DNA of 64,000 nt from a virus. Lineage: Duplodnaviria > Heunggongvirae > Uroviricota > Caudoviricetes. This document shows positions 3,901 through 21,221 of this stretch, in pieces. The translations under genes and the position numbers were made by a program. The notes under the pieces were generated by a model that was not told where the DNA came from, did no database searches, and was given only the letters and a program-made list of their open reading frames with translations. The stretch spans positions 64,001-128,000 of IMG/VR virus record IMGVR_UViG_3300049215_000772; one strand, written 5' to 3'. The stretch's first letter is position 1. The number at the start of each line of letters is the position of its first letter.

Positions 3901-4161
3901 ATGTCTGTTGCAAGAGCTAGGGTAGAACTCAAAGATGTATCACCCCACGCCTCCTATCAGGAGCGTGAAACTGCTTTCAGGAAAATGCTAACTGCTTTCA
4001 AGAAAGCAAGGGCTGAGGCGGGCATAGACCACGCCTACAAGCAGCATGAACACTACGAGAGCAAGGGCGTCAAGAAACGCAGAAAGCGAAGGGAGTCAGA
4101 AGTTCAACGCCTCAAGGCCAAGTTGAAAGAAAATTTCCCTGAACGCAAGAAGAGGGACTGA
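3901..4161 (+). CDS. rpsU: ribosomal protein bS21 homologue
   Basis: FRKMLTAFKKARAEAGIDHAYKQHEHYESKGVKKRRKRRE matches the S21 pattern (FKR..EKAG....R..EFYEKP...RKR). Confidence 0.8.
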   Translation: MSVARARVELKDVSPHASYQERETAFRKMLTAFKKARAEAGIDHAYKQHEHYESKGVKKRRKRRESEVQRLKAKLKENFPERKKRD

Positions 4162-4163
4162 AT

Positions 4164-4424
4164 ATGAAGAAATCCAACATCATGAGCCTGTCCGTAGAAC
4201 CGGAGATGCAGGAACATCTGAAGAAGGTTGCCAAGAAGAAGGGAGAATCTGTCTCCAAGCTGGTGCGTGACCTAATCCAGAAGTATCTTCCTGACGATGA
4301 CGGCACGGAGCAGGTGGACACAGTAATCTTGAAGATTCCAAGGGATTTGCGACAGCACCCGGAGGAACTGAAGAAGTGGATGGATGTTCGCATTGCGGGT
4401 GTTGTGAAGGCGTTGTCGTCCTGA
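4164..4424 (+). CDS. ribbon-helix-helix (CopG/Arc-like) DNA-binding protein
   Basis: IMSLSVEPEMQEHLKKVAKKKGESVSKLVRDLIQKYL. Confidence 0.75.
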   Translation: MKKSNIMSLSVEPEMQEHLKKVAKKKGESVSKLVRDLIQKYLPDDDGTEQVDTVILKIPRDLRQHPEELKKWMDVRIAGVVKALSS

Positions 4425-4436
4425 TACAATATCCAC

Positions 4437-4946
4437 ATGAAGAAGAACCAGCCGCCGCTCAAGATCGTTCCCATCGAAGACATCCCCAAAGCAGGCGATG
4501 TTCCTACCGAAAATCTCATCGACGTGTTCCGAATCTGCACGCAGATGGAGAAGATTTGTACCGACAACGACGGCATTGGCTTATCTGCCGTACAGGTCGG
4601 CATCCCCTGGAAGTTGTTCATCGTGTTGCACGACGAAAAAAAGAAGGGGTATTACTACAAGTATCTTCTGAACTGCGAATACGCCGGCCACGGCGACAAG
4701 GGCAAGTCTATTGAGGGCTGCCTTTCTCTACGCAATAGTGAAGGAAACTTGCGCCGGTTCGAGGTAAGTCGTTTTCCGAACGTGATCGTTACCGGCAAGG
4801 AACTGGCCATTACAGACAAGGGTTTGGAACTCAAGGACTTGAAGATAGCCCTGGATGGGCTGTATAGTATTGTGTACCAACACGAGATCGACCATCAGAA
4901 CGGCATATTGATTTCAGACATTGGCGTTGAGGTCGAACTCTACTAG
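4437..4946 (+). CDS. def: peptide deformylase
   Basis: all three motifs: GIGLSAVQ, EGCLS, HEIDH. Confidence 0.95.
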   Translation: MKKNQPPLKIVPIEDIPKAGDVPTENLIDVFRICTQMEKICTDNDGIGLSAVQVGIPWKLFIVLHDEKKKGYYYKYLLNCEYAGHGDKGKSIEGCLSLRNSEGNLRRFEVSRFPNVIVTGKELAITDKGLELKDLKIALDGLYSIVYQHEIDHQNGILISDIGVEVELY

Positions 4947-4954
4947 GAGAAATA

Positions 4955-5233
4955 ATGCCACTCAGTAGAAAACAACTACAGGACGTGTGCCTTCTATATG
5001 ATGGCACCTACAAGAAGTGCAAGTATTTGGCTCAGGACGACAATGACTGGAGCAAATACTACTGCTTGAAGAAGTCGCCCAAGAAGTCAGAAATCGACGT
5101 GGAAACTGACGACTTCATCCGGGAAACCCGCAAGAAAGGAAAAGACCCTCGCAAGGAAAATATCCCCCTGGGGGACAACTGCGAGGGGTATCCTATTCTA
5201 AAATATATAAACCAAGGCTATGACGCCCCATAA
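4955..5233 (+). CDS. hypothetical Cys-containing protein
   Basis: 92-aa ORF with RBS (AGGAG), overlapping the next start. Confidence 0.7.
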   Translation: MPLSRKQLQDVCLLYDGTYKKCKYLAQDDNDWSKYYCLKKSPKKSEIDVETDDFIRETRKKGKDPRKENIPLGDNCEGYPILKYINQGYDAP

Positions 5234-5697
5234 TGCCACACAAAGACCCACAAGCCAAGGCCGAGTACGCCCGCCAATACCGTGCTGCCAACCGAGAGAA
5301 GATAAGGGAGAACAGCAAGCGGTACTGGCAAAAGAACAAGGCAAGGTGTGCTGCCGCTAACCTGAAGTATCGCAGTGAAAACCAGGATAGAGTGAAAGAA
5401 CTCAATCAACTCTGGTGGGCGGCGAACAAGGATCGGTTGGTTGCCGAGAAGTACGGCCTTACGTTGGAAGAATACCAACAGATGCTTGATGCGACCGAAG
5501 GCAAGTGTCCGATATGTAGCGTCGAGTTAGTTTTCGAGGGTAAGTCGGCGGCACGAGCCTGCGTAGACCACGATCATGCGACCGGCAAAATACGAGGCAT
5601 CGTATGCAGCCGGTGCAACTTGTTGATTGGCAAGGCGAAGGATGATGCGGCCCTGTTGATGAGAGCCGCAGAATACTTGATGGCAGACAAGCCCTGA
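5233..5697 (+). CDS. endonuclease VII-type HNH nuclease (probable free-standing homing endonuclease)
   Basis: CPIC...VDHDHATGKIRGIVCSRCNLLIG plus basic N-terminal repeats. Confidence 0.9.
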   Translation: MPHKDPQAKAEYARQYRAANREKIRENSKRYWQKNKARCAAANLKYRSENQDRVKELNQLWWAANKDRLVAEKYGLTLEEYQQMLDATEGKCPICSVELVFEGKSAARACVDHDHATGKIRGIVCSRCNLLIGKAKDDAALLMRAAEYLMADKP

Positions 5698-5740
5698 TCG
5701 TATTGGAAATCCAACGAATTCCGTTGGATTTCCAATACGA
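5698..5740. repeat. 19-bp perfect inverted repeat between convergent genes (probable bidirectional terminator)
   Basis: TCGTATTGGAAATCCAACG-AATTC-CGTTGGATTTCCAATACGA. Confidence 0.8.
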
Positions 5741-5747
5741 GTGGGGC

Positions 5748-6260
5748 TTACTTCATCATCCCCAATATCTGCTTGTGCTTCGTGAGCAGGTGGTAAACAT
5801 GGGCTTCGGAGTCGGTGTTCATGGCTGCCCGCAGGACGTTATCTTGAAGGGTCAGATCGCCCGACCGAGCAACTTCAGCGGCCATAATATCTGCCGACTT
5901 CTCGGCCTTGACTGCCCTGCCGTGGAAGTAATACAGCAACATGCCAACCACGCCTAGCCCGAATACGAGGATCAAGGCACCATCTCCCTGTAGAATCTGG
6001 ACGCCGCTGTTTTCATTCCGGGAGACGGCGGCGTTCAGGTTTAACATGCCGTTCTGTACTTCTTTCAACTGGCTATTCTGAATCTCGGCGCTCTGCTTCA
6101 ATTTGAGCATATCCAGCATCACGCCGTTCTGATTGTTTTTGATTTCGTCGATCTTACCGTTCTGGTTGTCGATTTTGTTGTTCAGGCGGGGGTTGAGGTC
6201 CGCACAGCCTGTGACTAGAAGACACAGGCCGACCACAGCACTCAGAAAAATCCTTCTCAT
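5748..6260 (-). CDS. lipoprotein with coiled coil and a later transmembrane helix (u-spanin-like topology)
   Basis: start moved to 6260 (GGAGG RBS); signal ending LLVTGC; hydrophobic ALILVFGLGVVGMLLYYF. Confidence 0.65.
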   Translation of the reverse strand: MRRIFLSAVVGLCLLVTGCADLNPRLNNKIDNQNGKIDEIKNNQNGVMLDMLKLKQSAEIQNSQLKEVQNGMLNLNAAVSRNENSGVQILQGDGALILVFGLGVVGMLLYYFHGRAVKAEKSADIMAAEVARSGDLTLQDNVLRAAMNTDSEAHVYHLLTKHKQILGMMK

Positions 6261-6358
6261 ATATCGGCCTCCTTGTGGAGAATCCTCCCAAGTATGTATT
6301 GACCTGGCCCTGTATTTTGATAGCATTGACAATCGGCACATCTTCGGAGGAACCCCCT

Positions 6359-6850
6359 ATGACAGAACCAGCCACTTGGCTAGACGACGAGGATGGCGAG
6401 GAAGAACAGGAATGCGGCACTGGTAACGAAGCGAACTGCGTGTTTGCAACCGGCGTGCGAGTGATTGAGCCGATTGACACCGACATCAAGTCGGAGGACG
6501 TATATCGTGACGCATCCGAACTCGCCAAGCGTCGTATTGACGAGTTTTTCGCCGACAAGCAAATGCACTGCGGCGGCTCGATCCCCAAGCGTCTCCTGCA
6601 CGACCCCCAGCGGGTAAAGTGCGTTGTCAACTACAGCATTAGCAAGGCAGTCACCCGCTGCTATGCGGCGCTCAAACACACGATCACCGATGCGGAGCGA
6701 GCGGCAGCCAGGAAAACGGGTGACTCCACCAGGGACATCAAGCTGGTCAACGAAGCCCTCAAGTTGATGGCACGGTCTTGTGTGCCACAGGAATTTGCTG
6801 GGGGCATGTTGATGATGTATCTGGAATTCGTCGAAGGAGTCGAATTCTGA
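6359..6850 (+). CDS. hypothetical protein
   Basis: GGAGGA upstream of ATG 6359; acidic N-terminus. Confidence 0.7.
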   Translation: MTEPATWLDDEDGEEEQECGTGNEANCVFATGVRVIEPIDTDIKSEDVYRDASELAKRRIDEFFADKQMHCGGSIPKRLLHDPQRVKCVVNYSISKAVTRCYAALKHTITDAERAAARKTGDSTRDIKLVNEALKLMARSCVPQEFAGGMLMMYLEFVEGVEF

Positions 6851-6873
6851 ACCGTGATCTCAGCTTTCTCTCT

Positions 6874-7143
6874 TTGCAATTCGAGACGGTCGAGTTGCCG
6901 AGAGAGAAAGCGTATCTCTACAGGTATTTCAAGACCAAGATGCAGGAAGCCTTCTTGAAGTACATGCACGTTTTCGGTGATCCAACCCACTTCACCGACC
7001 ACACTGGCTTCCGTTGTACCCCTCGCTGGCTTAAAATACTAGAGAAGCGACTCGCCCGCTTGGAAAAATACCATCGAGAGGCGAAACAGAATTTCGATTT
7101 GGAAATCCTTGCCAAGATCGAAACGGGGAGATTCAAAGTATGA
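6874..7143 (+). CDS. hypothetical protein (start uncertain)
   Basis: fills the gap and overlaps the IDO start (ATGA); possible TTG start. Confidence 0.5.
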   Translation: MQFETVELPREKAYLYRYFKTKMQEAFLKYMHVFGDPTHFTDHTGFRCTPRWLKILEKRLARLEKYHREAKQNFDLEILAKIETGRFKV

Positions 7144-8288
7144 CCTGGAACATCAATGACCGTGGATTCCTTCCTCCACAAGACCCAATTGAAACCATCG
7201 TCACCCAAAATCCCAACTACGCTTCGCTTGAAGCTACACTGGAAAACCTCAGTGTTACCCTTCCTTCGCTTGTCGAAGAACGGCGTGTCCGGGAAGAACT
7301 TGTTGCCCAGCTTCGTAACGTCGCTGGCAAATATGATGAGTTGTGGGCAATCCATAATGGGGATGCCTGGGCCGAGCGGGTGATGTTGCTCTATTCCTAC
7401 TTCGCCAGCGCCTATCTCTACGCCAAACATGAGAACCCAGCCACTCGAATCCCCAAGGAAATCGCTATCCCACTCAACAGTATTGCCAAGCGAGTGGGTC
7501 GTCCTCCGATCCTTTCCTACGCTTCTTATTGTTTGACCAACTGGCGGCGTATTGACCCCAACAAACCCATCGAACTCGGCAACATCGAACTCCTTCAGAA
7601 CTTCTCGCAGGAAGCGAAGCGAGATGAGGATTGGTTCATCCTTGTTCATGTTGACATCGAGGCCAAAGCCGCTGATGCCGTCAACGCCATTGACCATTCC
7701 AAGTACATCTTTACCGAAGATGGGTTCGATAACTTTTCTCTCTACCGGATGTTCGAGCGCATCATCAAAAGCCTTCAAGGAATGAATGCCACCCTCGCCC
7801 GTATGCCGGAACAATGCAGCCCGGATGTTTACTACAGGTTGGTTCGTCCCTATATCTTCGGCTTCAAAGGCGTGGAATATGAGGGAGTCGGCAATCTGAC
7901 CCTCCGGGGCGAAACCGGCGCTCAGTCCAGCATCGTACCCATGCTTCTGATCGCCCTGGGGATCAAACATAAGGAATCCCTGCTGACTGTCCACCTGGAC
8001 GACATGCGCAACTACATGCCCCCGAAACACCGTGCGTTTCTCGAAAATCTCGCCGAACGTATGACGAATAACTCTTTGAGGGAGGCCGTGCTGAACAAGG
8101 TTCCAGGCTACCGTGAGGCGTACAACGAGTGCGTGAACCAGTTAATGATCTTCCGATCCATGCACTTTGAGTACGCCGTGAACTACATAGCCAAGAAGGT
8201 GGACAACCCGGAAGGCACGGGTGGAACGCCGTATATTCCTTGGCTGCAACAACTTAAAGACGAAACCTGGGCGCATCTGCTTCCTTGA
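7140..8288 (+). CDS. indoleamine 2,3-dioxygenase family heme protein
   Basis: GFLP, GRPPILSYASYCLTNW, DEDWFILVH, VRPYIFG, GETGAQSS, DMRNYMPPKHRAFL, FRSMH (heme His), GTGGT. Confidence 0.92.
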   Translation: MTWNINDRGFLPPQDPIETIVTQNPNYASLEATLENLSVTLPSLVEERRVREELVAQLRNVAGKYDELWAIHNGDAWAERVMLLYSYFASAYLYAKHENPATRIPKEIAIPLNSIAKRVGRPPILSYASYCLTNWRRIDPNKPIELGNIELLQNFSQEAKRDEDWFILVHVDIEAKAADAVNAIDHSKYIFTEDGFDNFSLYRMFERIIKSLQGMNATLARMPEQCSPDVYYRLVRPYIFGFKGVEYEGVGNLTLRGETGAQSSIVPMLLIALGIKHKESLLTVHLDDMRNYMPPKHRAFLENLAERMTNNSLREAVLNKVPGYREAYNECVNQLMIFRSMHFEYAVNYIAKKVDNPEGTGGTPYIPWLQQLKDETWAHLLP

Positions 8289-8296
8289 CCGGCTAC

Positions 8297-8325
8297 TTTA
8301 CAACCGCCCGAAATTGAAGTATGAT
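8297..8325 (+). promoter_or_regulatory. sigma70-type early promoter
   Basis: TTTACA-17 nt-TATGAT. Confidence 0.75.
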
Positions 8326-8353
8326 TGTCTTGCACGCTGAGGGTGGAGGAAAT

Positions 8354-9412
8354 ATGAAGAAAGTATTCACGACGGGCCTGTTGATTTTTGCGATGTTGTT
8401 CCTGGCATCTGCTGATGTGCAGGCGCAGCGGAGCTACAGCAGCAGGTCGTCAAGTTTCAGCAGCAAACCTTCATCTACATCTGGTAGTAGCTTCGGCAGA
8501 ACCTACAGCAGTGGCGGCAAGTCTGTCACGCAATCCAGTGGGAAGTCGTATTCCAATGGGCCGAAGCAATCTTCCGGCCCGGCTGCAACATCGCCTAGCG
8601 GGAGAACATTTTCTACTGGTTCGCCCCCGGCGAAGGTCGCCCCGGCCCAGCCATCAACTCCCCCGGCCTCGAAGTACACCAACGGTCCTCCGAAGACTGG
8701 ACCGCCAGCGGCCTCGAATAACAGCAGCAAGCCGGCGAGCAAGGGTTGGAACCCTGGTTTGAGCGCAGCGGCGCAGAAGGAGCAAAGCAGGCAGGCGTAT
8801 CAGAAGGCCACGCAGCCGGCAGCGACACCGAAGCCCACTTACAGATCGTCTACGGGCGTGGAGAAGCCACTGAACCCGCAGGCTCCGCAAGTGCAAACTG
8901 TTCGCCGCTATGTTACGCACGAGCGCTATGTCACTTACGAACACAGGGCCACGGTTTTCTATGGACCGTATTATGCCCACCCGGTATACTACAACGACTG
9001 GTACAGCCCTTTCATCATGGGTTACTTGCTCTCGGCGTCGGTGAATGCCAACGAGCGTGCTTATTGGGTCTACTGCCATCGAGCAGACATGGACCAGGCT
9101 CGCTACAATGAATTGTTGGCGAAAGATGCCGAGTTGTCGGCCCGGCTGAGGGTTTTGGAGAACAAGCAGGCTGCTGTCGATCCCAATTTCGTCTTGCCGA
9201 GCATGAGGGATAACCCGGACTTGCAGTACAGTCACGATTTTGTGACGGCGACCTACAATCCGCAATCTGTTCCGCCTGCTGGCGGCGGCGATGATGGGGA
9301 AGAACACGATCACAGTGGCGTCGGCCACTTCTTCTTCTGGTTCTTCGTGGTGATTTTGATCCTGGGCGTGGTTGCCTTGTTCGTGTGGCTGATGTTCGTC
9401 AAGGAATGGTAA
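8354..9412 (+). CDS. secreted, C-terminally membrane-anchored Ser/Gly/Pro-rich protein
   Basis: signal peptide MKKVFTTGLLIFAMLFLASADVQA, low-complexity region, Tyr-rich domain, C-terminal TM; GGAGG RBS. Confidence 0.8.
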   Translation: MKKVFTTGLLIFAMLFLASADVQAQRSYSSRSSSFSSKPSSTSGSSFGRTYSSGGKSVTQSSGKSYSNGPKQSSGPAATSPSGRTFSTGSPPAKVAPAQPSTPPASKYTNGPPKTGPPAASNNSSKPASKGWNPGLSAAAQKEQSRQAYQKATQPAATPKPTYRSSTGVEKPLNPQAPQVQTVRRYVTHERYVTYEHRATVFYGPYYAHPVYYNDWYSPFIMGYLLSASVNANERAYWVYCHRADMDQARYNELLAKDAELSARLRVLENKQAAVDPNFVLPSMRDNPDLQYSHDFVTATYNPQSVPPAGGGDDGEEHDHSGVGHFFFWFFVVILILGVVALFVWLMFVKEW

Positions 9413-9443
9413 CGGCCAACGAAGAACCTATTGAGGAGCAACG

Positions 9444-10130
9444 ATGAAGCTGTATGAATTGATTCTGAGGAAGATTGGGTGGTGGCCGAAAGACCCGCCC
9501 TTGGAGGCGAAGGTTTACAATCCCGTCTCCGAGAAGGCTGACAAGCCTTGTAAGGTCGGGTCCGCCGTGAGTATCGACAATCTGGACTACCGGAAACTTC
9601 AGTTCGTCGTGAAGGAAATCCGTGAAAACAGTGTGTCGATGGGCGGTGGGTTGAACAAGTTCACCGACTACGCTCTCCAGGCCAGGAACGGCAGCGGTGG
9701 GGACGTTTGGGTTCGCCTGCGTCTCATTCCTGATCCAGACACAACCACCAGGTTGTCGCATCGGGCTATTGTGCTGTCCTTGTACGACGAGATGGCCTAC
9801 AACGAGGGGCTTCACGGCGTTGTGAAGGATGAATCCGGCAAGTTCGTTGTGGACGACAAAGATGTTCATGACGAGTTCTGGCGGGTCAACGACGTGAAGA
9901 TGTCGTACACGTCCGATGTAACGTCCATGAAGGACGAAAACAACGATGGGAGGATTGACCCCAATGAAGTGAAGCACGAGCAGGTGGAGTTTTGGGATTT
10001 TTCCAGGATGACTACCATCGAAGGTGTCGAAGTCGAACAGTTCGTCTTCGTCGAAATGAACAAAGAAAACGGGTGGTTCCAAATCTGGAGAGGAACCGAC
10101 ATCAACCCTGAGAGCGTGAGCGTGTACTAA
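9444..10130 (+). CDS. DUF2491/DUF4178-like beta-rich protein (PspA partner)
   Basis: beta-strand-rich sequence (FTDY, EFWDF, GWFQIWRG); position between the anchored protein and PspA. Confidence 0.5.
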   Translation: MKLYELILRKIGWWPKDPPLEAKVYNPVSEKADKPCKVGSAVSIDNLDYRKLQFVVKEIRENSVSMGGGLNKFTDYALQARNGSGGDVWVRLRLIPDPDTTTRLSHRAIVLSLYDEMAYNEGLHGVVKDESGKFVVDDKDVHDEFWRVNDVKMSYTSDVTSMKDENNDGRIDPNEVKHEQVEFWDFSRMTTIEGVEVEQFVFVEMNKENGWFQIWRGTDINPESVSVY

Positions 10131-10161
10131 CTAACCCTTTACAAAGGAAAGCGAGAGAAAA

Positions 10162-11025
10162 ATGACTCCTCTGTTTGCATTCGGATTTTTTGAGATCGGC
10201 ATTGGTGCCCTGATCGTGGTCGGTCTGATCGCCGTGTTCAACTTCCGGGCGCTGAAGCGATTGTTCAGTGCCGGGAGTGTCCAGGTCGGCAAGATCGGAC
10301 GCTGGGCCAGCGAGAAAGACCCCCTGGCCGTGTACCAGGAGCGGATCGACGAGGGCACGGAGAAGATCGCCAAGGGTCGGCAGTTTTTGGGACAGGCGGG
10401 CGGTGAAGTACGGTCGGCCAAGCGGTCGGTGACGGAACTTCAAACCGAAGCCGTTCGCCTCAACAATCGCATCGACACCGCTGAGAAGGCGGGCGATCCC
10501 AACCACACCCTGGAGGGTTACGCCCTCGAACTGGCCGACGTGGAAGAAAAGCTGGGCCACGGGCCGCAGGGCGGCTGGAACTTCGATGGCAAGGAATGCA
10601 AGTTCGTTCAGACCCAGGAATCGCAGTGGTCCACGGAAGACCAGGGCACGGGCGCTCTCGGTCGGTTGTTCCGGGCGCAACTGAGGTTCGACAACTTCAG
10701 TGCCCAAATCCTACAGGGCCAGGAACAGATCGAGACGGCCCGCAAGGAGGCTCGTGACCTTGGTATGGAACTCCAGCAAAGCCAGCACGAGAAGGAAATG
10801 AACGAATTCGCCAACAGCTTCGACCCGTCCAGCTTCGGTTCGGACGACACCCTGAAGGCGGCTCGTGACAAGCTGAAGCAGCAGATCGACGACAACCGTG
10901 GTTCCGGCGATGCCAACGCCGCCCTCAACGTCAAGGCGTCGAGCCGGGCCAAGGATGCCCAACTGGAGCGGTCGGCACGGGCACAGGAAATCCTGGCCCG
11001 CCGCAAGAAGCCGGCTGAGGCGTAA
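10162..11025 (+). CDS. PspA/IM30 (ESCRT-III-like) protein with N-terminal TM
   Basis: DPLAVYQERIDE, long coiled coils, C-terminal ARAQEILARRK. Confidence 0.75.
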   Translation: MTPLFAFGFFEIGIGALIVVGLIAVFNFRALKRLFSAGSVQVGKIGRWASEKDPLAVYQERIDEGTEKIAKGRQFLGQAGGEVRSAKRSVTELQTEAVRLNNRIDTAEKAGDPNHTLEGYALELADVEEKLGHGPQGGWNFDGKECKFVQTQESQWSTEDQGTGALGRLFRAQLRFDNFSAQILQGQEQIETARKEARDLGMELQQSQHEKEMNEFANSFDPSSFGSDDTLKAARDKLKQQIDDNRGSGDANAALNVKASSRAKDAQLERSARAQEILARRKKPAEA

Positions 11026-11053
11026 AACAACAACCAGCCCAAAGGCTGATTTG

Positions 11054-11086
11054 AAGGGCGGGAGTCTCGTACTCCCGCCCTTTTTT
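11054..11086 (+). terminator. rho-independent terminator
   Basis: AAGGGCGGGAGT-CTCGT-ACTCCCGCCCTT followed by a T-run. Confidence 0.9.
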
Positions 11087-11099
11087 CGTTTCCGCATTG

Positions 11100-11106
11100 C
11101 TACATA
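11100..11106 (+). promoter_or_regulatory. putative late promoter box CTACATA
   Basis: immediately after the terminator, 9 nt before ATG 11116. Confidence 0.5.
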
Positions 11107-11115
11107 ATTGGAGCC

Positions 11116-12096
11116 ATGCGAAACTTCTACAGATACCTTTATGAGCGCTCGATTGTCGATCAACAACGGCGCATTGCCTATTTGATGGTGGAACAGGGTG
11201 TCAATCCGTACCGACACATTCAACACTACCTTGATTCTCAGCCTATCAATGAAGGTATTTTTGGCAATTTCTTTCAGCGCATCGGCAACGCCTGGCGTGC
11301 TTTCTGGAAGAACCCCAACCCCGAAGATTCCCCAATCACTCGCCTGGAAACCGCCAAAAAAGCGTTGGGCGAGCTACAACAAATGGTCCAACAAAACCAG
11401 GGAGCCGAGGCCGATGTCCTGGGTACGGTCCTGCGTGGCCTGGAACAATCGCTGACCATCATTAACAAGGTTGAGCCAACCATCCGAGATATGAGCGGTA
11501 GGATGCAGCAGTTTGCCCAGGATGGCATTGCCGGTAACGATCCGATGTACCAGTTGCCAGATGCCCAAAACAAACAATGGCATCAGATTATGGGCGAACT
11601 GGATGCTATCTTGAAGGAACCTGACAGCGAGCAGAAGTTGCAGAAGATTGGGCAGAATAGGGAGAAGTTCCTACAGTTCAAGCAACAGTTGGAGGATGAG
11701 TACCAGAAGATGGCTCCTGATCCTAACAACCAGGACAAAAAGCGTTTGGAGAATTTCTTGAGGCGTATAGATACTGATGCGTCATTCAGGGAAATCGAAG
11801 CGTTGATGGATTTTGCCCGGAGACGTGCAGGCAACACCGGCATGATGGTCGTCAAGCCTCAAGGCTATGAGGAAGTAATTGCTGCGTGGCGGCAGATTGC
11901 AAGAACAACGAGGGATGAGAATCAACAACGGGCACAATTGATAGCCTGGTACAACAAGCTACCCGCAAACCATCGCATCAGACAATTCATTCAAGGTGAG
12001 ATGCAAAATGTACCAGGGAAAAATGAGGCCGACTTGTTCTATGATTATGCTCATCAGTGGATAAATAAGTACGCTCATCACTTAACGGGAATGTAG
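11116..12096 (+). CDS. alpha-helical Gln-rich protein, candidate internal virion protein
   Basis: MRNFYRYLYE N-terminus; INE/G site. Confidence 0.75.
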   Translation: MRNFYRYLYERSIVDQQRRIAYLMVEQGVNPYRHIQHYLDSQPINEGIFGNFFQRIGNAWRAFWKNPNPEDSPITRLETAKKALGELQQMVQQNQGAEADVLGTVLRGLEQSLTIINKVEPTIRDMSGRMQQFAQDGIAGNDPMYQLPDAQNKQWHQIMGELDAILKEPDSEQKLQKIGQNREKFLQFKQQLEDEYQKMAPDPNNQDKKRLENFLRRIDTDASFREIEALMDFARRRAGNTGMMVVKPQGYEEVIAAWRQIARTTRDENQQRAQLIAWYNKLPANHRIRQFIQGEMQNVPGKNEADLFYDYAHQWINKYAHHLTGM

Positions 12097-12103
12097 AGGT
12101 AAT

Positions 12104-12532
12104 ATGGACGATTTTCAGTACAAACTCAAACGAATTTTGTTCGAGGCCGAAGAAGCGGAACTAACACCCATTGGTGCGCCCGACAAATTCAACATCGGCC
12201 ATCACGATACCGGCATGAAGAAAGCCGGCGAGAGTGGTGCTGCTTCCGAGGTTATTCAAAAGCATTTGGAGGCTCAGGCTTTCGAGTTTAAGAAGCTGAA
12301 AACGGCTTATGATGAGTTGGTGAAAACCGTCAATGAAGTCTTCAGCAAGTTGGGTACTTATGGCATCGAAGACAAGGGCTTCATGAAGGGCAAGATGCAG
12401 CCGATGGCCGTACCGCCTCATCTTCAGCAGCAGGGTCAGCCTTCTGGCGCTTCTACAGCACAAGCTATGGGTCAAAGTGCTTTCCGCCAGAGAATGCAGA
12501 CGCCGATCACCCCCAACGTGGACGATCTATAA
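12104..12532 (+). CDS. hypothetical protein, candidate internal virion protein
   Basis: GAGG RBS; MDDFQYKLKRILFE/AEE. Confidence 0.7.
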   Translation: MDDFQYKLKRILFEAEEAELTPIGAPDKFNIGHHDTGMKKAGESGAASEVIQKHLEAQAFEFKKLKTAYDELVKTVNEVFSKLGTYGIEDKGFMKGKMQPMAVPPHLQQQGQPSGASTAQAMGQSAFRQRMQTPITPNVDDL

Positions 12533-12540
12533 GGAGCAAA

Positions 12541-13275
12541 ATGAAGAAGAAAACCATTACAGAAGCAGACGCCCCAGCAGCCGCTCCGACGACCACGAAC
12601 ATTGGTCAGGAGTTTGCACAGGCGAAGAAGACCATCGGTGCTTTCTTGTCGAAGTTGGGACAGGCTTTCAACGAGTACGAAACTCGTCTCGGTCGTTTGA
12701 ACATGGCGTTGCAGCGTCAGATGGCTCCTTTGGCTGCCGGTGCCCAGGGCGCTTCCGACCGCATCAAGCAGTTGGAAGACGATTACGCAAAGCTGGAGCA
12801 GGACAGTGCCGAGGCTCTACGGAAGGCCAACGAAACGATTACAGATTTGAAGCGTCAATTGAAGGACGCTATGGCTTCTGGTTCTTCCCAGGGCGAGCAG
12901 TTGCGCATGGCGAATCAGGAACTTCAGCGTGCCGAGCAGACAATTGCCGACAAGCAGCAGGCCATTGAAGCCTATATCGAGAGGCTTTCCAAAGCTAAGG
13001 ATCGTATCCGGGCTGCTGCCGGTGCCCACGAGACTGACCGTGTTCAGTGGAACCAGCAGATGGATGCTTACGAGCAGCAGATCGACGAGTTGCGGAAGAA
13101 GAACGAAGAATTGGTGAAGCTGGCAGATGACGCTGTGGCTCGCTTCAACGAACTTTTGGCTGGTACTACAAGAACCGTAGACCAGGCGCACACGAAGCAC
13201 TATGGAGGCTTCGACCTCAAGGAACACCTGGAGAGGGCACGGAAGAAACAAGGGGTCACGGAAACTTGGTTCTGA
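12541..13275 (+). CDS. long coiled-coil protein, candidate internal virion protein
   Basis: AAGGAG RBS; MKKKTITE/AD; heptad-rich. Confidence 0.75.
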   Translation: MKKKTITEADAPAAAPTTTNIGQEFAQAKKTIGAFLSKLGQAFNEYETRLGRLNMALQRQMAPLAAGAQGASDRIKQLEDDYAKLEQDSAEALRKANETITDLKRQLKDAMASGSSQGEQLRMANQELQRAEQTIADKQQAIEAYIERLSKAKDRIRAAAGAHETDRVQWNQQMDAYEQQIDELRKKNEELVKLADDAVARFNELLAGTTRTVDQAHTKHYGGFDLKEHLERARKKQGVTETWF

Positions 13276-13317
13276 TGTAATATATACCGAACCAAGACGG
13301 GATAGGACATCGTGGAT

Positions 13318-13355
13318 AGAGGGGAGTTGTCAGATGGCAACTCCCCTCTCTTTTT
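13318..13355 (+). terminator. rho-independent terminator
   Basis: AGAGGGGAGTTG-N8-CAACTCCCCTCT-C-TTTTT. Confidence 0.85.
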
Positions 13356-13366
13356 GCGCTGGGAGG

Positions 13367-13373
13367 CTATATA
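13367..13373 (+). promoter_or_regulatory. putative late promoter box CTATATA
   Basis: 5 nt before ATG 13379; forms the loop of a GGAGG/CCTTC hairpin. Confidence 0.5.
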
Positions 13374-13378
13374 CCTTC

Positions 13379-13597
13379 ATGTTCCAGAAATTTGCAGAAT
13401 GGTTGAAGGTTCGAGAAACCACAGCTTTTACTCGATTAAGACGTGATTCAGCCAAGGGCTTGAAACCGCCTATTGCGGATTTTGACTCCCATTCCACTCC
13501 ATCTTGGGGTGGCGATTGGGAGCGCAAACAATTGGTGAAACATTTCAATGCTTCTCACAAGAAGCACAAACACAAGAAGGATGAAGACGATGAATGA
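13379..13597 (+). CDS. small protein, MFQKFAEWLKVRE N-terminus
   Basis: start moved to ATG after the terminator and late box. Confidence 0.6.
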   Translation: MFQKFAEWLKVRETTAFTRLRRDSAKGLKPPIADFDSHSTPSWGGDWERKQLVKHFNASHKKHKHKKDEDDE

Positions 13598-13997
13598 CAT
13601 GAAAACTTTCAGCGAATGGCGGAAGGGCCGTCCTGCCATGCGCAAACCAAGAAAGCCATCGGTGAAGAATCCATCTATTGACGCCTTCGTGAAGTCCGTG
13701 GATAGTTTGAAGAAGGATATGGATCAGCTTGATGCGGTTGAGAAGAAAGTCAAGCCGAAGCCGGAAGGGAAACCAGAAGAAAAACCGGACGACAAGAAAG
13801 CCTTCAACAGCTTCAAAGATTACAAGAAGAAGCGTGATTCCGAAGAAGGAAAGAATCAGGATGAGGAAGAAGACGATGATGAAGAAGGGCAGCAGCTTCC
13901 TGATGAGCCTGTAGAGCGGCCTCGTGTGTTGCCCAAGGCACCAGTGTTGCGACAAAAACTTCGCCGTCCAGTCAATCCCGAAGGAATGGAAGATTGA
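13590..13997 (+). CDS. highly charged protein, (MND)MKTFSEWRK N-terminus
   Basis: overlaps the previous stop; Lys-rich then acidic. Confidence 0.7.
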   Translation: MNDMKTFSEWRKGRPAMRKPRKPSVKNPSIDAFVKSVDSLKKDMDQLDAVEKKVKPKPEGKPEEKPDDKKAFNSFKDYKKKRDSEEGKNQDEEEDDDEEGQQLPDEPVERPRVLPKAPVLRQKLRRPVNPEGMED

Positions 13998-14057
13998 AAT
14001 TTGTTGCTGGCTTTCTACCTTGGATTTAGTGATATAATTCCCTTGTAAGGAGATGTC

Positions 14058-14531
14058 ATGCCAGACGAAATTAACCTGGCGGACGCACTGCTGGAGGATT
14101 GTGATAACCTCCTGATAGTGACACCCGAACTCAAGATCAGAGCCGCCAAGGATCAGAAGGAACACACGGAAGTCGTTGTTGCTTCTGAACGGACCTTCCT
14201 CATTGTTGTAGCCGTCCACAAAGATAAGTCACGGAATACCATCAACCGGATTTCCTGCAAGCGAGGCGTTCCGATTGGGGGTTATGTTTATGATGCGCAG
14301 TCGGAAGCCTACTCCTACGAGTGCAGCGATTACGCCATGATCGGCTATCTTCCTGTTTCATTCATTATGCGGGTCCAGGGTTCCTCGTGGCAGGTGCGAG
14401 TGCCCATGTGCGAATCTGTTCTGAAGAAGTTCATGACTAGCCTTCAGAAGCGGGAATTGAAGAATTTCAAGAACCACTTCAAGCCGGAAGACTATCACAT
14501 TGAATTCATTCAGATGATCGACCCGAACTGA
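14058..14531 (+). CDS. hypothetical protein
   Basis: AAGGAG RBS, 157 aa. Confidence 0.75.
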   Translation: MPDEINLADALLEDCDNLLIVTPELKIRAAKDQKEHTEVVVASERTFLIVVAVHKDKSRNTINRISCKRGVPIGGYVYDAQSEAYSYECSDYAMIGYLPVSFIMRVQGSSWQVRVPMCESVLKKFMTSLQKRELKNFKNHFKPEDYHIEFIQMIDPN

Positions 14532-15001
14532 TGAACAAAGTGCGGCGCAAGAATTTCCGAGAAAACATAAACCAGGACGACTACTGGATGGGCCTAGCCT
14601 TCTGGATCGCCGCTGGCAGCCGGAACCCGACAAATCCCCAGGGGGCGGTGATTGTTGGGCCGCAGGGGAATTTATTGGCCCAGGGTTTTGACTGTCCGCC
14701 CAAGTGCATGTACGACGGCGAGTACATGCGTCCCGCTGAGAAGGCGGCGATTCAGGACACTAGGTTCGTCATTTTTACCGGATCGACCCTTTACACAACC
14801 CACACACCTTCGGCGGAAGCGATTCTCGATGTTGTTGCCGCCGACATCAAGCGTGTTGTTTATTTCCCAACACAGCCTCTCAGTCCAGCCGCACAAGAAA
14901 TTATCCAGCAAGCCTACGGACAGGTTCAGGAGTTCCGGGGGAATCTAAGCTGGATGCGAGATCATATTTCAGTCCTCAAGTCCCTGGGCGTATTTTCATG
15001 A
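14531..15001 (+). CDS. dCMP deaminase/ComEB-fold protein lacking zinc ligands (probably inactive)
   Basis: DYWMGLAF..A..S, GAVIV, G(F)D, LYTTH-P framework, but HAE reads PAE and PCxxC reads PSAEA. Confidence 0.75.
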   Translation: MNKVRRKNFRENINQDDYWMGLAFWIAAGSRNPTNPQGAVIVGPQGNLLAQGFDCPPKCMYDGEYMRPAEKAAIQDTRFVIFTGSTLYTTHTPSAEAILDVVAADIKRVVYFPTQPLSPAAQEIIQQAYGQVQEFRGNLSWMRDHISVLKSLGVFS

Positions 15002-16259: not shown

Positions 16260-17891
16260 ATGCCGTCCGTAGCTGATTTTCTTATCGAACGTCTCGAAAA
16301 CACCGGAGTAAAACACATCTTCGGTGTGCCAGGCGACTATGTTCTAAACTTCATCAAGCGATTGGGTGACAGCAAAAAGATCAAGTTTGTCAACACGACA
16401 GATGAGAATCATGCCGGTTTTGCTGCCGATGCCTATGCCAGAGTCAACGGCATTGGCTGCGTTGCAACAACTTATAACGTCGGCACTTTGAAAGTATGCA
16501 ATTCGGTAGCAGGGGCATACGCTGAAAGGTCGCCGATGATCGTCCTATCCGGCTCTCCCGGATTGAAGGAACGAAACGAAGATTTCATGCTTCATCACGT
16601 TGTCAAAAGTTTCGACAACCAGTTGAAGATGTTCAAACATATCACCTGCTACAGTGTCATTCTGGAAGACCCCACCAAAGCCGGATTCCTGATCGACGAG
16701 GCGTTGGAGGCGCTGAAGTTTCACAAGCAGCCAATCTACATCGAGTTGCCTCGTGACGTGGCTGAAATGCCCATCCGGTATGATGTGTACCGCCAAGGCA
16801 CTCCACATGCTCGTGAAAGTGATGGCCAGAACCTCAAGGAAGCCTTGGGTGAGGTTTGCGAGTGGATTACAAATGCTTCCAATCCTGTCATTGTGGCAGG
16901 CGTTCAGCTTGCCAGAATGAACCTGGGTGGGCAACTGGTGCGGTGGGCCGAGCGACACAACATCCCAATGGTGACTACGTTGTTGAGCAAATCAACAGTC
17001 AACGAATACCACCCATTGTTTGCTGGTGTTTACAGTGGCCCGCAAACATCAGAAGACGCTGTTCGCAAATTGGTTGATGATTCGGACTGCTTGCTAATCC
17101 TGGGTGAGATGTTGACGGATATGATGCTGGGTTTTCAGTCGCCCAAATTCACCAAGCGTCAGACTGTGTTCTGCTCGATTGAGGGATTGAAGGTCCGCAA
17201 CCACGCATACAATGATGTATTGTTCACCGACTTCTGCGCTGAATTGTTCAGGGTGAACTTGCCGAAGAAGGCAGAACCGGCCCTTCCGCCAAAGAAGATG
17301 ATGGAAGGGTTCGTGCCGCAGAAGGACAAGAAGATGACGACTCAGCGATTCTTCGAGAAGGTCAACTCGATGTTGAACGAGAAGATTGCTGTGGTCGCCG
17401 ATATTGGTGAAGTTTTGTTCGGGGCTTCCTCGTTGGTAGTTTCCCATCATCATTTCATCAGCCCGGCCTTCTATTGCAGCATGGGTCTTGCGATCCCTGG
17501 TGCTTTGGGAGTGGGCCTGGCAAAACCGGAACTGCGTCCGGTCGTGCTGGTGGGCGATGGTGCCTTCCAGATGTCCGTGAGTGAACTCAGCAGTCACTTG
17601 GAAAACAAGTTGAATACCATCGTGTTCGTGCTGAATAACAAGGGCTACACTACCGAACGGTTCCTGCTCGACGGAAAGTTCAACAATATCCGCAACTGGA
17701 ACTACCATGCTGTTCCCCATTTGTTGGGCGGCGGGACGGGTTACTTTGTGGAGACGGAGGAACAACTGGAGGCGGCTGTGGCGGCTGCTTTGAAGAGCAA
17801 AGAATTGGCAATCGTCAACGTGTCTGTCGATCCGACCGACATTTCAACAGCTTTAAGGAGAATGGTCGAAAATCTCTCTAAGAGAGTTTAA
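16260..17891 (+). CDS. TPP-dependent 2-keto-acid decarboxylase (indolepyruvate/pyruvate decarboxylase family)
   Basis: IFGVPGDY, DENHAGFAADAYAR, GDGAFQM...NNKGYTTER. Confidence 0.92.
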   Translation: MPSVADFLIERLENTGVKHIFGVPGDYVLNFIKRLGDSKKIKFVNTTDENHAGFAADAYARVNGIGCVATTYNVGTLKVCNSVAGAYAERSPMIVLSGSPGLKERNEDFMLHHVVKSFDNQLKMFKHITCYSVILEDPTKAGFLIDEALEALKFHKQPIYIELPRDVAEMPIRYDVYRQGTPHARESDGQNLKEALGEVCEWITNASNPVIVAGVQLARMNLGGQLVRWAERHNIPMVTTLLSKSTVNEYHPLFAGVYSGPQTSEDAVRKLVDDSDCLLILGEMLTDMMLGFQSPKFTKRQTVFCSIEGLKVRNHAYNDVLFTDFCAELFRVNLPKKAEPALPPKKMMEGFVPQKDKKMTTQRFFEKVNSMLNEKIAVVADIGEVLFGASSLVVSHHHFISPAFYCSMGLAIPGALGVGLAKPELRPVVLVGDGAFQMSVSELSSHLENKLNTIVFVLNNKGYTTERFLLDGKFNNIRNWNYHAVPHLLGGGTGYFVETEEQLEAAVAAALKSKELAIVNVSVDPTDISTALRRMVENLSKRV

Positions 17892-20927: not shown

Positions 20928-21221
20928 ATGAAACCTGGTCCTCCTGCACTACACAAAGTCAGCGTTCGCCGGGCGTTGATGTACATCGAAAAAAAGTTGC
21001 GGGAAACTTTCAGGATAATGCTCGTCGAAGGCAAATCTGTGAAGTGGATGGAGGAACAAGTAGACCTGGAATTGTTTTGGATGAATGAACGTGGTGCCTT
21101 CTGGAACTACGAAGTGGCGCTGGGCGAGTATTCTTCGCTGGTGGCGATTCAACCACTCCCGTTCCAGGACTGGATATACATTGAACTTGAAAGGAAGAAT
21201 GAATGTCATACGTTGGAATGA
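20928..21221 (+). CDS. hypothetical protein
   Basis: about 97-aa ORF overlapping the ALDH start. Confidence 0.55.
   Translation: MKPGPPALHKVSVRRALMYIEKKLRETFRIMLVEGKSVKWMEEQVDLELFWMNERGAFWNYEVALGEYSSLVAIQPLPFQDWIYIELERKNECHTLE

What the first reader, a model, noticed from the sequence alone, without database searches (positions are those of the whole stretch)
7140..8288. Phage-encoded indoleamine 2,3-dioxygenase
Seen: an intact IDO-family sequence with the proximal heme His (FRSMH), substrate Arg (VRPY), the GxxGAQSS loop and the GTGG loop. Established: IDO converts Trp to N-formylkynurenine, the entry to kynurenine-route NAD synthesis; related folds act in secondary metabolism (PrnB). I do not recall IDO as a typical phage auxiliary gene. 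Inference: it could boost NAD supply (against NAD-depleting defences), deplete Trp, or make a signal molecule.
Basis: partly seen in the sequence, partly recalled or inferred. Interest (0 to 1): 0.85.

Follow-up and report, generated by a model that had tools for sequence, protein, structure and literature searches.

The report
Tryptophan-opening haem enzyme in huge phages
A giant bacteriophage from a moss microbiome carries an intact copy of the haem enzyme IDO, which opens the ring of tryptophan. Some of its relatives inherited the gene too, but I found no evidence that it feeds NAD synthesis, so its benefit to the phage is unknown.

Summary
Window 7140-8288 (+) encodes an intact 382-aa IDO-family protein: Pfam PF01231 at 226 bits, and an AlphaFold model with TM 0.80-0.86 to human IDO1/IDO2.

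The context is a real huge phage with a T4-type capsid gene, gp32, bS21, IF3, a tRNA cluster and a 673-kb parent contig.

New here:
- The gene sits at one fixed spot in a conserved block in at least 8 related huge-phage contigs, including a complete 511-kb genome.
- It is accessory. Ten related records, including a complete 572-kb genome, lack it.
- Its divergence tracks that of a linked core gene (r = 0.90), which suggests old inheritance followed by losses.
- Its nearest cellular relatives are Planctomycetota (Gemmataceae).

The NAD-supply reading is not supported. The IDO-positive phage genomes show no formamidase, kynureninase, aminotransferase or QPRT. In Gemmataceae, NadA is in 40 of 41 genomes, and IDO holders mostly lack kynureninase.

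Best reading: a stand-alone Trp to N-formylkynurenine dioxygenase of unknown benefit. I found no prior description in GenBank phages, PHROGs or the searchable literature. This scan had flagged a phage IDO on other DNA before (e1-5385550).

The parts
7140..8288 (+). IDO-family haem dioxygenase gene (382 aa)
   Evidence: PF01231 at 225.7 bits. AF2 model pLDDT 86.8, TM 0.80-0.86 to hIDO1/IDO2. Catalytic residues mapped. Syntenic copies in 7 other huge-phage contigs.
6847..7143 (+). Conserved ~98-aa gene of unknown function. Its stop overlaps the IDO start (ATGA). The probable start is non-canonical (CTG 6847 or ATT 6844, after GAAGGAG); the mechanical ORF starts at TTG 6778.
   Evidence: Alignment A2; DNA. 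Present in 24 of 26 clade loci with or without IDO, so it is a backbone gene marking the left edge of the cargo slot, not an IDO partner. The family has 246 clusters of ~100-aa proteins.
8297..8325 (+). Promoter-like site (TTTACA-17-TATGAT) just after the IDO stop, heading the next three genes. No terminator-like site lies between IDO and it.
   Evidence: Consensus scan only. It suggests IDO is read with the upstream small gene and the downstream genes separately.
8321..14528 (+). Rest of the variable cargo slot: about 10 genes of unknown function, including the three-gene unit 8321-11025.
   Evidence: Shared only with the closest relatives L002, L098 and L099, not with L005, L006 or L008. Slot length is 0.8-7.9 kb across the clade. 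No Pfam hits.
14531..15001 (+). Deaminase-like backbone gene marking the right edge of the slot
   Evidence: PF00383 at 23 bits, under the cut-off. Conserved position in clade loci.
16260..17891 (+). Core clade gene used as marker: TPP-dependent 2-keto-acid decarboxylase, indolepyruvate/phenylpyruvate-decarboxylase-like
   Evidence: Pfam TPP_enzyme_N/M/C. TIGR03394 at 325 bits, below its equivalog cut-off of 554. More than 120 homologues at 59-96% identity, on contigs up to 673 kb.
3901..4946 (+). Upstream backbone genes: bS21-like (3901-4161), RHH protein (4164-4424), peptide deformylase (4437-4946)
   Evidence: Pfam. Same order in L098, L099 and L100.

Best explanation
The gene encodes a catalytically competent, monomeric haem-b dioxygenase of the IDO family. 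In the infected cell it most likely binds host haem and converts L-tryptophan plus O2 to N-formylkynurenine. That product would then hydrolyse, spontaneously or through a host amidase, to kynurenine plus formate.

The gene is accessory cargo of a clade of huge phages (about 340-670 kb). It always sits as the first gene of one variable slot, read together with a conserved small backbone gene. It appears to have been acquired once, from or shared with a Planctomycetota (Gemmataceae-like) lineage, which is therefore the best guess for the host. It was then inherited vertically and lost in many relatives.

It works alone: neither the phage nor the likely host lineage supplies the steps from kynurenine to NAD. 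Any benefit should therefore come from draining tryptophan or O2, or from the kynurenine-type product itself.

Shown: family membership, fold, conserved catalytic residues, phage context, synteny, patchy distribution, co-divergence, and absence of follow-up enzymes. Inferred: substrate, activity, host, and biological benefit.
For: Family and fold:
- PF01231 at 225.7 bits.
- Model pLDDT 86.8, with TM 0.80-0.86 to hIDO1/IDO2.

Active site, by profile alignment to hIDO1; all these residues are invariant in 28 relatives:
- H342 = proximal His346, and R339 = R343.
- R236 = carboxylate-binding R231.
- F166 = F163, and Y231/Y232 = F226/F227.
- GETGAQSS = loop 261-268.
- T360-G-G-T363 = JK-loop T379-T382.
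- H170 stands where hIDO1 has S167.

Phage context:
- Gp23-type capsid, gp32, RecA, split PolIII alpha, aaRS and CCA enzyme in the same record.
- bS21, PDF, IF3, DnaJ and 7 tRNAs in the window.
- The exact protein occurs on a 673-kb contig.

Synteny:
- IDO is in the same place in L002 (340 kb), L005 (436 kb), L006/L007, L008 (511 kb, terminal repeats, 100% complete), L098, L099 and L100 (634 kb).

Accessory status:
- Only 4 distinct genomes among 26 clade loci carry it.
- Whole-record searches were negative in 10 records, including a complete 572-kb genome.

Co-divergence:
- Pairwise identities of IDO and the linked TPP gene correlate at r = 0.90.

Origin:
- In a 129-sequence tree, all phage IDOs fall in one clade (support 92). 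Its only cellular members are Planctomycetota, and their contexts are truly cellular.

Stand-alone status:
- Follow-up enzymes were not found in the phage genomes.
Against: - No activity, haem binding or substrate has been measured. The IDO family includes members with low Trp activity and other roles; Ball et al. 2014 (PMC4191572) suggest ancestral IDOs were broad indole oxidisers.
- The JK loop is about 12 residues shorter than in hIDO1 and is modelled with low confidence (pLDDT under 50 at 355-363).
- The host is inferred from one gene tree whose inner branching is an unresolved polytomy. The direction of transfer is not shown.
- That complete relatives do without the gene shows it is dispensable, so a weak or conditional benefit is possible.
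- Only 134 kb of the 673-kb parent contig could be read, so follow-up genes elsewhere in this particular phage are not excluded. They were, however, absent from a complete 511-kb IDO-positive relative.
Confidence: 0.6

Rival explanations
1. NAD supply. The phage IDO raises flux into the kynurenine route so that the host rebuilds NAD during infection, for example against NAD-depleting defences.
For: IDO is the first step of the Trp to quinolinate route (established knowledge). The phage uses NAD: an NAD-dependent DNA ligase lies at 46979-49099. A complete relative carries a NAPRTase/Nampt-family gene, so NAD economy matters to these phages.
Against: None of the five phage records searched has KynB-type cyclase, kynureninase or QPRT; four of them carry IDO, one of those complete at 511 kb. 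The three IDO-positive records searched (G001-G003) also lack Abhydrolase_3 formamidase and class I/II aminotransferase. In Gemmataceae, NadA is in 40 of 41 genomes. IDO is in 6 and kynureninase above cut-off in 11, with only one fragmentary overlap. The NAD gene found in a relative is a salvage enzyme, not a de novo one.
Confidence: 0.1
2. Same fold, other job. The enzyme oxidises another indole compound (D-Trp, tryptamine, 5-hydroxy-Trp, indole, a halogenated Trp, or a Trp-derived signal), or mainly consumes O2 or superoxide or acts as a haem sensor. It would then serve signalling, detoxification or counter-defence rather than Trp catabolism.
For: The IDO family has a broad substrate range and non-catalytic members, such as IDO-like myoglobin (PMC4191572). 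The distal residue is His rather than the Ser of hIDO1, and the JK loop is shorter. Gene neighbourhoods of cellular relatives are highly variable: 428 clusters from 519 neighbour ORFs, so no pathway is fixed. There is a weak PrnB hit at 17.7 bits.
Against: The residues that hold the amino-acid moiety of L-Trp in hIDO1 (R231 and T379 equivalents) are invariant. The PrnB score is below its cut-off of 27.
Confidence: 0.2
3. Not a phage gene: host DNA joined to phage DNA by misassembly, or host flank of a provirus. The record is labelled 'provirus' with 27% completeness.
For: IMG/VR classes the 134-kb record as a provirus cut from a longer contig. IDO relatives are common in bacteria, with more than 577 species genomes matching.
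Against: IDO lies 71 kb into the record, with phage backbone genes on both sides, in the same order as in 7 other huge-phage contigs from other samples, one of them a complete genome with terminal repeats. Independent short assemblies repeat the local gene order. Four DNA runs hold at least 95% of the words of 5200-11200. The start codon overlaps the stop of a phage backbone gene.
Confidence: 0.02
4. Neutral passenger: a captured host gene with no role in infection, on its way to being lost.
For: It is missing from most relatives, including two complete or nearly complete genomes. It evolves faster than the linked core gene: 41-64% against 51-83% identity.
Against: It stays intact, with all catalytic residues invariant, across phage lineages whose core genes have diverged to about 50% identity. 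It remains translationally coupled at the same spot.
Confidence: 0.08

Closest known systems
Human IDO1 / IDO2 (e.g. PDB 2D0T, 7P0R, 6E43, 9UYY)
   Same: Same Pfam family and two-domain helical fold (TM 0.80-0.86, about 27% identity). Same proximal His, substrate Arg, aromatic pocket, 261-268 loop and GTGG of the JK loop.
   Different: His instead of Ser167 on the distal side: the residue engineered into hIDO1 in PDB 6CXU, and, from my own knowledge, the state seen in TDO. The JK loop is about 12 residues shorter. No N-terminal extension. Encoded by a phage.
Bacterial IDOs (Yuasa, Ushigoe and Ball 2011, Gene 485:22, cited in PMC4191572), especially those of Planctomycetota/Gemmataceae
   Same: Nearest cellular relatives at about 50% identity, sharing one tree clade. 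Single-domain-architecture proteins of about 370-390 aa with variable gene neighbourhoods.
   Different: The phage copies sit in a fixed slot of a huge-phage backbone. The biological role of the bacterial enzymes is itself poorly known. In the Gemmataceae sampled, they do not travel with kynureninase.
Auxiliary metabolic genes of huge and jumbo phages (Al-Shayeb et al. 2020, PMC7162821; Iyer et al. 2021, PMC7824862), and phage NAD salvage genes (PMC11662467)
   Same: A host-type metabolic enzyme carried by a very large phage alongside translation genes (bS21, IF3, PDF, aaRS, tRNAs).
   Different: Neither survey mentions tryptophan, kynurenine or IDO. The jumbo-phage NAD paper does not contain the word kynurenine. 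This enzyme is not linked to NAD genes here.
PrnB and TDO (other haem-dependent Trp-ring enzymes)
   Same: Related chemistry. PrnB shares the IDO-like fold, and TDO shares a distal His.
   Different: PrnB scores 17.7 bits, below its cut-off of 27. No TDO family appears in the Pfam scan.

Membership tests
IDO family (Pfam PF01231) | Profile match above the curated cut-off over most of the domain | tested here: met
   225.7 bits against a cut-off of 26; profile positions 8-359 of 412.
IDO family (Pfam PF01231) | IDO fold (small and large helical domains) | tested here: met
   AF2 pLDDT 86.8, pTM 0.88. The top 50 Foldseek PDB hits are all hIDO1 or IDO2, with TM 0.79-0.86.
IDO family (Pfam PF01231) | Proximal haem-ligand His (hIDO1 H346) with the preceding Arg (R343) | tested here: met
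   H342 and R339 align to them and are invariant in 28 relatives.
IDO family (Pfam PF01231) | Residues holding the L-Trp amino-acid moiety (R231; T379 in the GTGG of the JK loop) and the 261-268 loop | tested here: met
   R236, T360-G361-G362-T363 and G257-S263 are aligned and invariant. The JK loop is shorter and modelled with low confidence.
IDO family (Pfam PF01231) | Binds haem and converts L-Trp to N-formylkynurenine | not testable with these tools
   Needs expression, a Soret spectrum and an activity assay.
Phage auxiliary metabolic gene | Lies inside a bona fide phage genome, with phage genes on both sides | tested here: met
   Capsid, gp32 and other phage genes in the record. Syntenic in 7 other huge-phage contigs, including a complete 511-kb genome.
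Phage auxiliary metabolic gene | Homologue of a cellular metabolic gene of the host lineage | tested here: inconclusive
   The nearest cellular relatives are Planctomycetota, but the host is not independently known.
Kynurenine route to NAD (as a phage NAD-supply module) | Follow-up enzymes (formamidase, KMO, kynureninase, HAAO, QPRT) in the phage or its host | tested here: not met
   Phage records: no KynB cyclase, kynureninase, QPRT, Abhydrolase_3 or class I/II aminotransferase. Gemmataceae: NadA in 40 of 41; kynureninase in only 1 (fragmentary) of 6 IDO holders. KMO and HAAO were not searched.
PrnB (PF08933) | Profile match above the cut-off | tested here: not met
   17.7 bits against a cut-off of 27.

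The most novel reading that the evidence does not exclude
The phage IDO is an effector enzyme rather than a nutrient-pathway step. It makes a kynurenine-type compound, or destroys an indole or Trp-derived one, that acts as a signal or inhibitor. That could serve counter-defence or superinfection control. Alternatively, together with the clade's conserved indolepyruvate-decarboxylase-like enzyme and aldehyde dehydrogenase, it could be part of a phage programme that rewires aromatic and indole metabolism of moss-associated Planctomycetota. From my own knowledge, kynurenine inhibits plant auxin synthesis, and arylacetates are auxins.
Probability: 0.07. Interest if true: 0.85.

Novelty: new member of a known kind. 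Interest (0 to 1): 0.5.

Why it matters
IDO is one of the most studied enzymes of human immunometabolism, yet its role in bacteria is barely known and I found no description of it in phages. This work shows that a whole lineage of the largest known phages (genomes of 0.34-0.67 Mb) has kept a working-looking copy at one genomic spot over deep divergence.

That adds a haem-dependent amino-acid-degrading enzyme to the list of phage auxiliary genes. It gives a tentative host clue (Planctomycetota) for an uncultured huge-phage clade. It also yields a short, soluble, easily testable protein.

The attractive NAD counter-defence story is unlikely here, which keeps a wrong annotation out of the record. 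If the product turns out to be a signal or inhibitor, it would be a new way for phages to manipulate cells.

Tried and rejected
1. Partner hypothesis. The small gene whose stop overlaps the IDO start looked like a dedicated partner, such as a redox or haem helper. I rejected this because the gene is present in 24 of 26 clade loci whether or not IDO is there. It belongs to a family of 246 clusters.
2. The complex prediction of IDO, haem and the small protein gave no verdict. It is not evidence either way.
3. Peptide deformylase as an N-formylkynurenine deformylase. It is a backbone gene present without IDO, so there is no specific link.
4. IDO plus TPP decarboxylase plus ALDH as one pathway. 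Both partners are core genes present without IDO, and no phage aminotransferase was found. ALDH or TPP genes next to cellular IDOs occur in only a few related genomes. This is a lead only.
5. Conserved operon partners in bacteria. None was found: 428 clusters from 519 neighbour ORFs.
6. Single-sequence scans of IMG/VR found nothing. Alignment-based scans were needed.
7. GenBank phages gave no DNA or protein match.
8. The 673-kb parent contig could not be read, so the rest of this phage is unseen.
9. Four of the 11 IMG/VR IDO contigs (L009-L012) belong to a different IDO branch. The flanks of L009 look cellular (DAO oxidoreductase, HtrA, SOD), so I did not count them as phage.
10. RNA-library contigs identical to the window cover scattered pieces, including 7531-7792 and 8095-8330. 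These are assembled contigs of low depth, and DNA carry-over cannot be excluded, so this is only a weak hint of transcription. Parts without cover mean nothing.
11. Literature searches for IDO or kynurenine with phage terms returned only unrelated reviews.

Full report
**Observation**

The ORF at 7140-8288 (+) is real and intact, at 382 aa.
- It matches Pfam IDO (PF01231) at 225.7 bits, against a gathering score of 26.
- It matches human IDO1 and IDO2 chains at E about 1e-33 by sequence and 5e-51 by profile.
Their key residues are invariant in an alignment of 28 relatives.
- An AlphaFold2 model built on that alignment has mean pLDDT 86.8 and pTM 0.88. Its 50 best Foldseek matches in the PDB are all human IDO1 or IDO2, with TM 0.79-0.86 at about 27% identity.

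**Active site**

I mapped residues through the profile alignment to hIDO1. Numbering was checked on the F163/F164/S167 stretch of chain 4U74.

| This protein | hIDO1 equivalent | Role |
|---|---|---|
| H342 | H346 | proximal haem ligand |
| R339 | R343 | precedes the ligand His |
| R236 | R231 | binds the Trp carboxylate |
| F166 | F163 | aromatic pocket |
| Y231/Y232 | F226/F227 | aromatic pocket |
| Y127 | Y126 | aromatic pocket |
| G257-S264 | loop 261-268 | flexible loop |
| T360-G-G-T363 | T379-T382 | JK loop |

Two differences stand out.
- The distal position holds an invariant His (H170) where hIDO1 has S167. That His is the one engineered into hIDO1 in entry 6CXU and, from my own knowledge, is the state seen in TDO.
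- The JK loop is about 12 residues shorter and poorly modelled.

The residues that hold the amino-acid part of L-Trp are kept, which favours L-Trp or a close analogue as substrate. PrnB scores under its cut-off and no TDO family appears.

**Is it a phage?**

Yes. The window is bases 64,001-128,000 of a 134-kb IMG/VR record.
- The first 64 kb hold a T4-type Gp23 capsid gene, gp32, a RecA/UvsX-like gene, a split PolIII alpha, a class I aminoacyl-tRNA synthetase, a CCA-adding enzyme, and PrkA plus DUF444.
- The window itself holds bS21, peptide deformylase, IF3, DnaJ, a GroES-like gene, an NAD-dependent ligase and seven tRNA genes. Nearly all genes are on one strand.
- The identical IDO and the identical neighbouring TPP enzyme are on record on a 673,178-bp contig.
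- Earlier notes of this scan on the same genome also read it as a huge phage.

The 'provirus, 27% complete' label probably reflects trimming of a very large phage contig. Related records with terminal repeats are 511 and 572 kb.

**Relatives and position**

An IMG/VR scan with the IDO alignment gave 11 contigs. Five of them are syntenic with the window for about 20 kb around IDO: L002 (340 kb), L005 (436 kb), L006/L007, and L008 (511 kb, terminal repeats, CheckV 100%).

The shared order is two paralogous about 380-430-aa genes, bS21, PDF, a lipoprotein gene on the other strand, a small gene, IDO, a deaminase-like gene, a 408-aa gene, a TPP enzyme, then ALDH, UGDH and DnaJ.

Three more contigs from other assemblies show the same order: L098, L099 (binned in an NCBI MAG) and L100 (634 kb). 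This excludes misassembly or a host flank. So do the independent short contigs with the same local order, and the four DNA runs that hold at least 95% of the words of 5200-11200.

**Core or accessory?**

I collected the clade through its well-conserved TPP enzyme (alignment A3). That gave 26 IMG/VR loci with the same backbone.
- Only the four distinct genomes named above carry IDO.
- In each, IDO is the first gene of a variable slot between the small gene and the deaminase-like gene. The slot is 0.8-7.9 kb long and otherwise holds small unknown ORFs, a methyltransferase, or a LAGLIDADG endonuclease.
- Whole-record searches with PF01231 were negative in ten such records. These include a complete 572-kb genome with terminal repeats and a 97%-complete 430-kb one. 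The same search finds the gene in the window's record.

IDO is therefore dispensable cargo. Yet among the eight IDO-positive phages, pairwise IDO identity (41-64%) tracks pairwise identity of the linked TPP gene (51-83%), with Pearson r 0.90. The pairs are not independent, so this is only descriptive. It fits old acquisition, vertical descent and repeated loss better than recent shuffling.

**Origin**

I built a maximum-likelihood tree of 129 IDOs: phage copies, the 36 best metagenome hits, and 78 loci from species genomes of many phyla.
- All syntenic phage copies and all top metagenome hits fall in one clade (SH-aLRT 92).
- Its only cellular members are two Planctomycetota MAG contigs (one Gemmataceae) and two metagenome proteins (subclade support 99).
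- The contexts of two of these are clearly cellular: G6PD, NDK, squalene-hopene cyclase, DUF1501 and a branching enzyme.
- Branching inside the clade is a polytomy, so the direction of transfer is not shown.

Planctomycetota are the best, still tentative, guess for the donor and host.

**Testing the NAD idea**

No follow-up enzyme turned up in the phage records, which were searched in two sets.
- Cyclase-type kynurenine formamidase, kynureninase and QPRT were sought in the window's record (G000), G001, G002, G003 (the complete 511-kb IDO-positive genome) and the partial record G004. None was found.
- Abhydrolase_3-type formamidase and class I/II aminotransferase were sought in G001, G002, G003 and two IDO-negative relatives, G050 and G051. 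None reached its cut-off.
- The complete genome has a NAPRTase/Nampt-family gene, which is a salvage enzyme.

In a sample of 41 Gemmataceae genomes:
- NadA (the aspartate route to quinolinate) is in 40.
- IDO is in 6 and kynureninase above cut-off in 11. The only overlap is one genome with kynureninase fragments.

So in the nearest cellular lineage, IDO is not the entry to NAD synthesis, and the phages add nothing downstream. KMO and HAAO were not searched, the MAGs are incomplete, and the host is not proven. The idea is therefore weakened rather than excluded, and I give it about 0.1.

**Neighbours**

- The small gene upstream overlaps the IDO start (ATGA). Its conserved N-terminus has no ATG, GTG or TTG; a CTG or ATT follows a GAAGGAG. 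It is a backbone gene found with or without IDO, so it is not an IDO-specific partner.
- No promoter-like site precedes IDO. One follows its stop and heads the next three genes.
- The TPP enzyme scores best against indolepyruvate/phenylpyruvate decarboxylase, at 325 bits, under the equivalog cut-off. With the ALDH it is core to the clade, which is interesting in itself but not tied to IDO.
- Cellular IDO neighbourhoods are not conserved.

**Habitat and expression**

- The DNA is held almost completely by four moss-metagenome runs, two of which are possibly the source.
- Contigs from four metatranscriptome libraries match pieces of the first 20 kb at 100% identity. Two pieces lie inside or at the end of IDO.
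- Because these are low-depth contigs and DNA may be present in such libraries, this is only a weak hint that the phage is active there.

**Prior knowledge**

- There is no IDO in 50,697 GenBank phage records by tblastn, and no PHROG family.
- The two large surveys of huge and jumbo phage gene content mention neither tryptophan nor IDO.
- Full-text searches joining IDO or kynurenine with phage terms found nothing relevant.
- Bacterial IDOs are known (Yuasa et al. 2011, cited in PMC4191572).
- This scan had already flagged a phage IDO on other DNA (e1-5385550).

**Verdict**

This is a genuine, probably active IDO carried as long-lived but dispensable cargo by a clade of huge phages, most likely acquired from a Planctomycetota-like lineage. 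It is a new member of a known kind: a phage auxiliary metabolic gene of a known enzyme family. The enzyme call is firm. The biological role is open, and the NAD-supply story is unlikely. Interest 0.5.

Noticed in passing
window 16260-17891 and 21203-22705: A TPP-dependent 2-keto-acid decarboxylase scores best against indolepyruvate/phenylpyruvate decarboxylase (TIGR03394, 325 bits, under its cut-off). With an aldehyde dehydrogenase, it is a core gene of this huge-phage clade, with more than 120 homologues at 59-96% identity. No phage aminotransferase was found. Together they could turn aryl-pyruvates into aryl-acetates.
   Followed up: partly
window 6778-7143: A conserved ~98-aa backbone gene has no ATG, GTG or TTG at its conserved N-terminus. 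The probable start is CTG 6847 or ATT 6844, after GAAGGAG. The family has 246 clusters of ~100-aa proteins of unknown function.
   Followed up: partly
window 8321-11025: Another note (e1-5388067) labels the three genes after IDO as surface protein, DUF2491-like and PspA. Pfam hmmscan at E up to 0.01 gave no hit for any of them.
   Followed up: partly
window 60474-60569: ARAGORN reports a 96-nt tRNA-like gene with a four-base anticodon (agtt), next to tRNA-Ile in the tRNA cluster.
   Followed up: no
L113:2740-7526: In one IDO-negative relative, the same cargo slot holds a 516-aa LAGLIDADG endonuclease protein and a 247-aa ORF with a Terminase_6N match. The slot may be a target for mobile elements.
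   Followed up: no
G005-G048 (Gemmataceae sample): In 41 Gemmataceae genomes, IDO (6 genomes) and kynureninase (11 genomes) almost never co-occur, while NadA is nearly universal. The cellular role of IDO in this family is therefore not NAD synthesis.
   Followed up: partly
L067, L071, L082, L093, L085, L049, L034: In some Acidobacteriota and Desulfobacteraceae genomes, an aldehyde dehydrogenase lies directly beside IDO. In one Actinomycetota genome, a TPP enzyme does. These are the same enzyme classes that lie near IDO in the phage. The events are too few and too closely related to call it a link.
   Followed up: partly
whole record (G000) and relatives G003, G050: The 'provirus, 27% complete' label of the 134-kb record looks like an artefact of trimming. 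The parent contig is 673 kb, and relatives with terminal repeats are 511 and 572 kb, among the largest phage genomes on record.
   Followed up: partly
L004:9206-11098: Another IMG/VR contig (69 kb) has an IDO sister to that of L005, but in a different context: it lies directly after a PD-(D/E)XK/Cas4-like nuclease and near a Toprim primase and a Volactin gene. IDO may therefore also sit elsewhere in related phages.
   Followed up: partly
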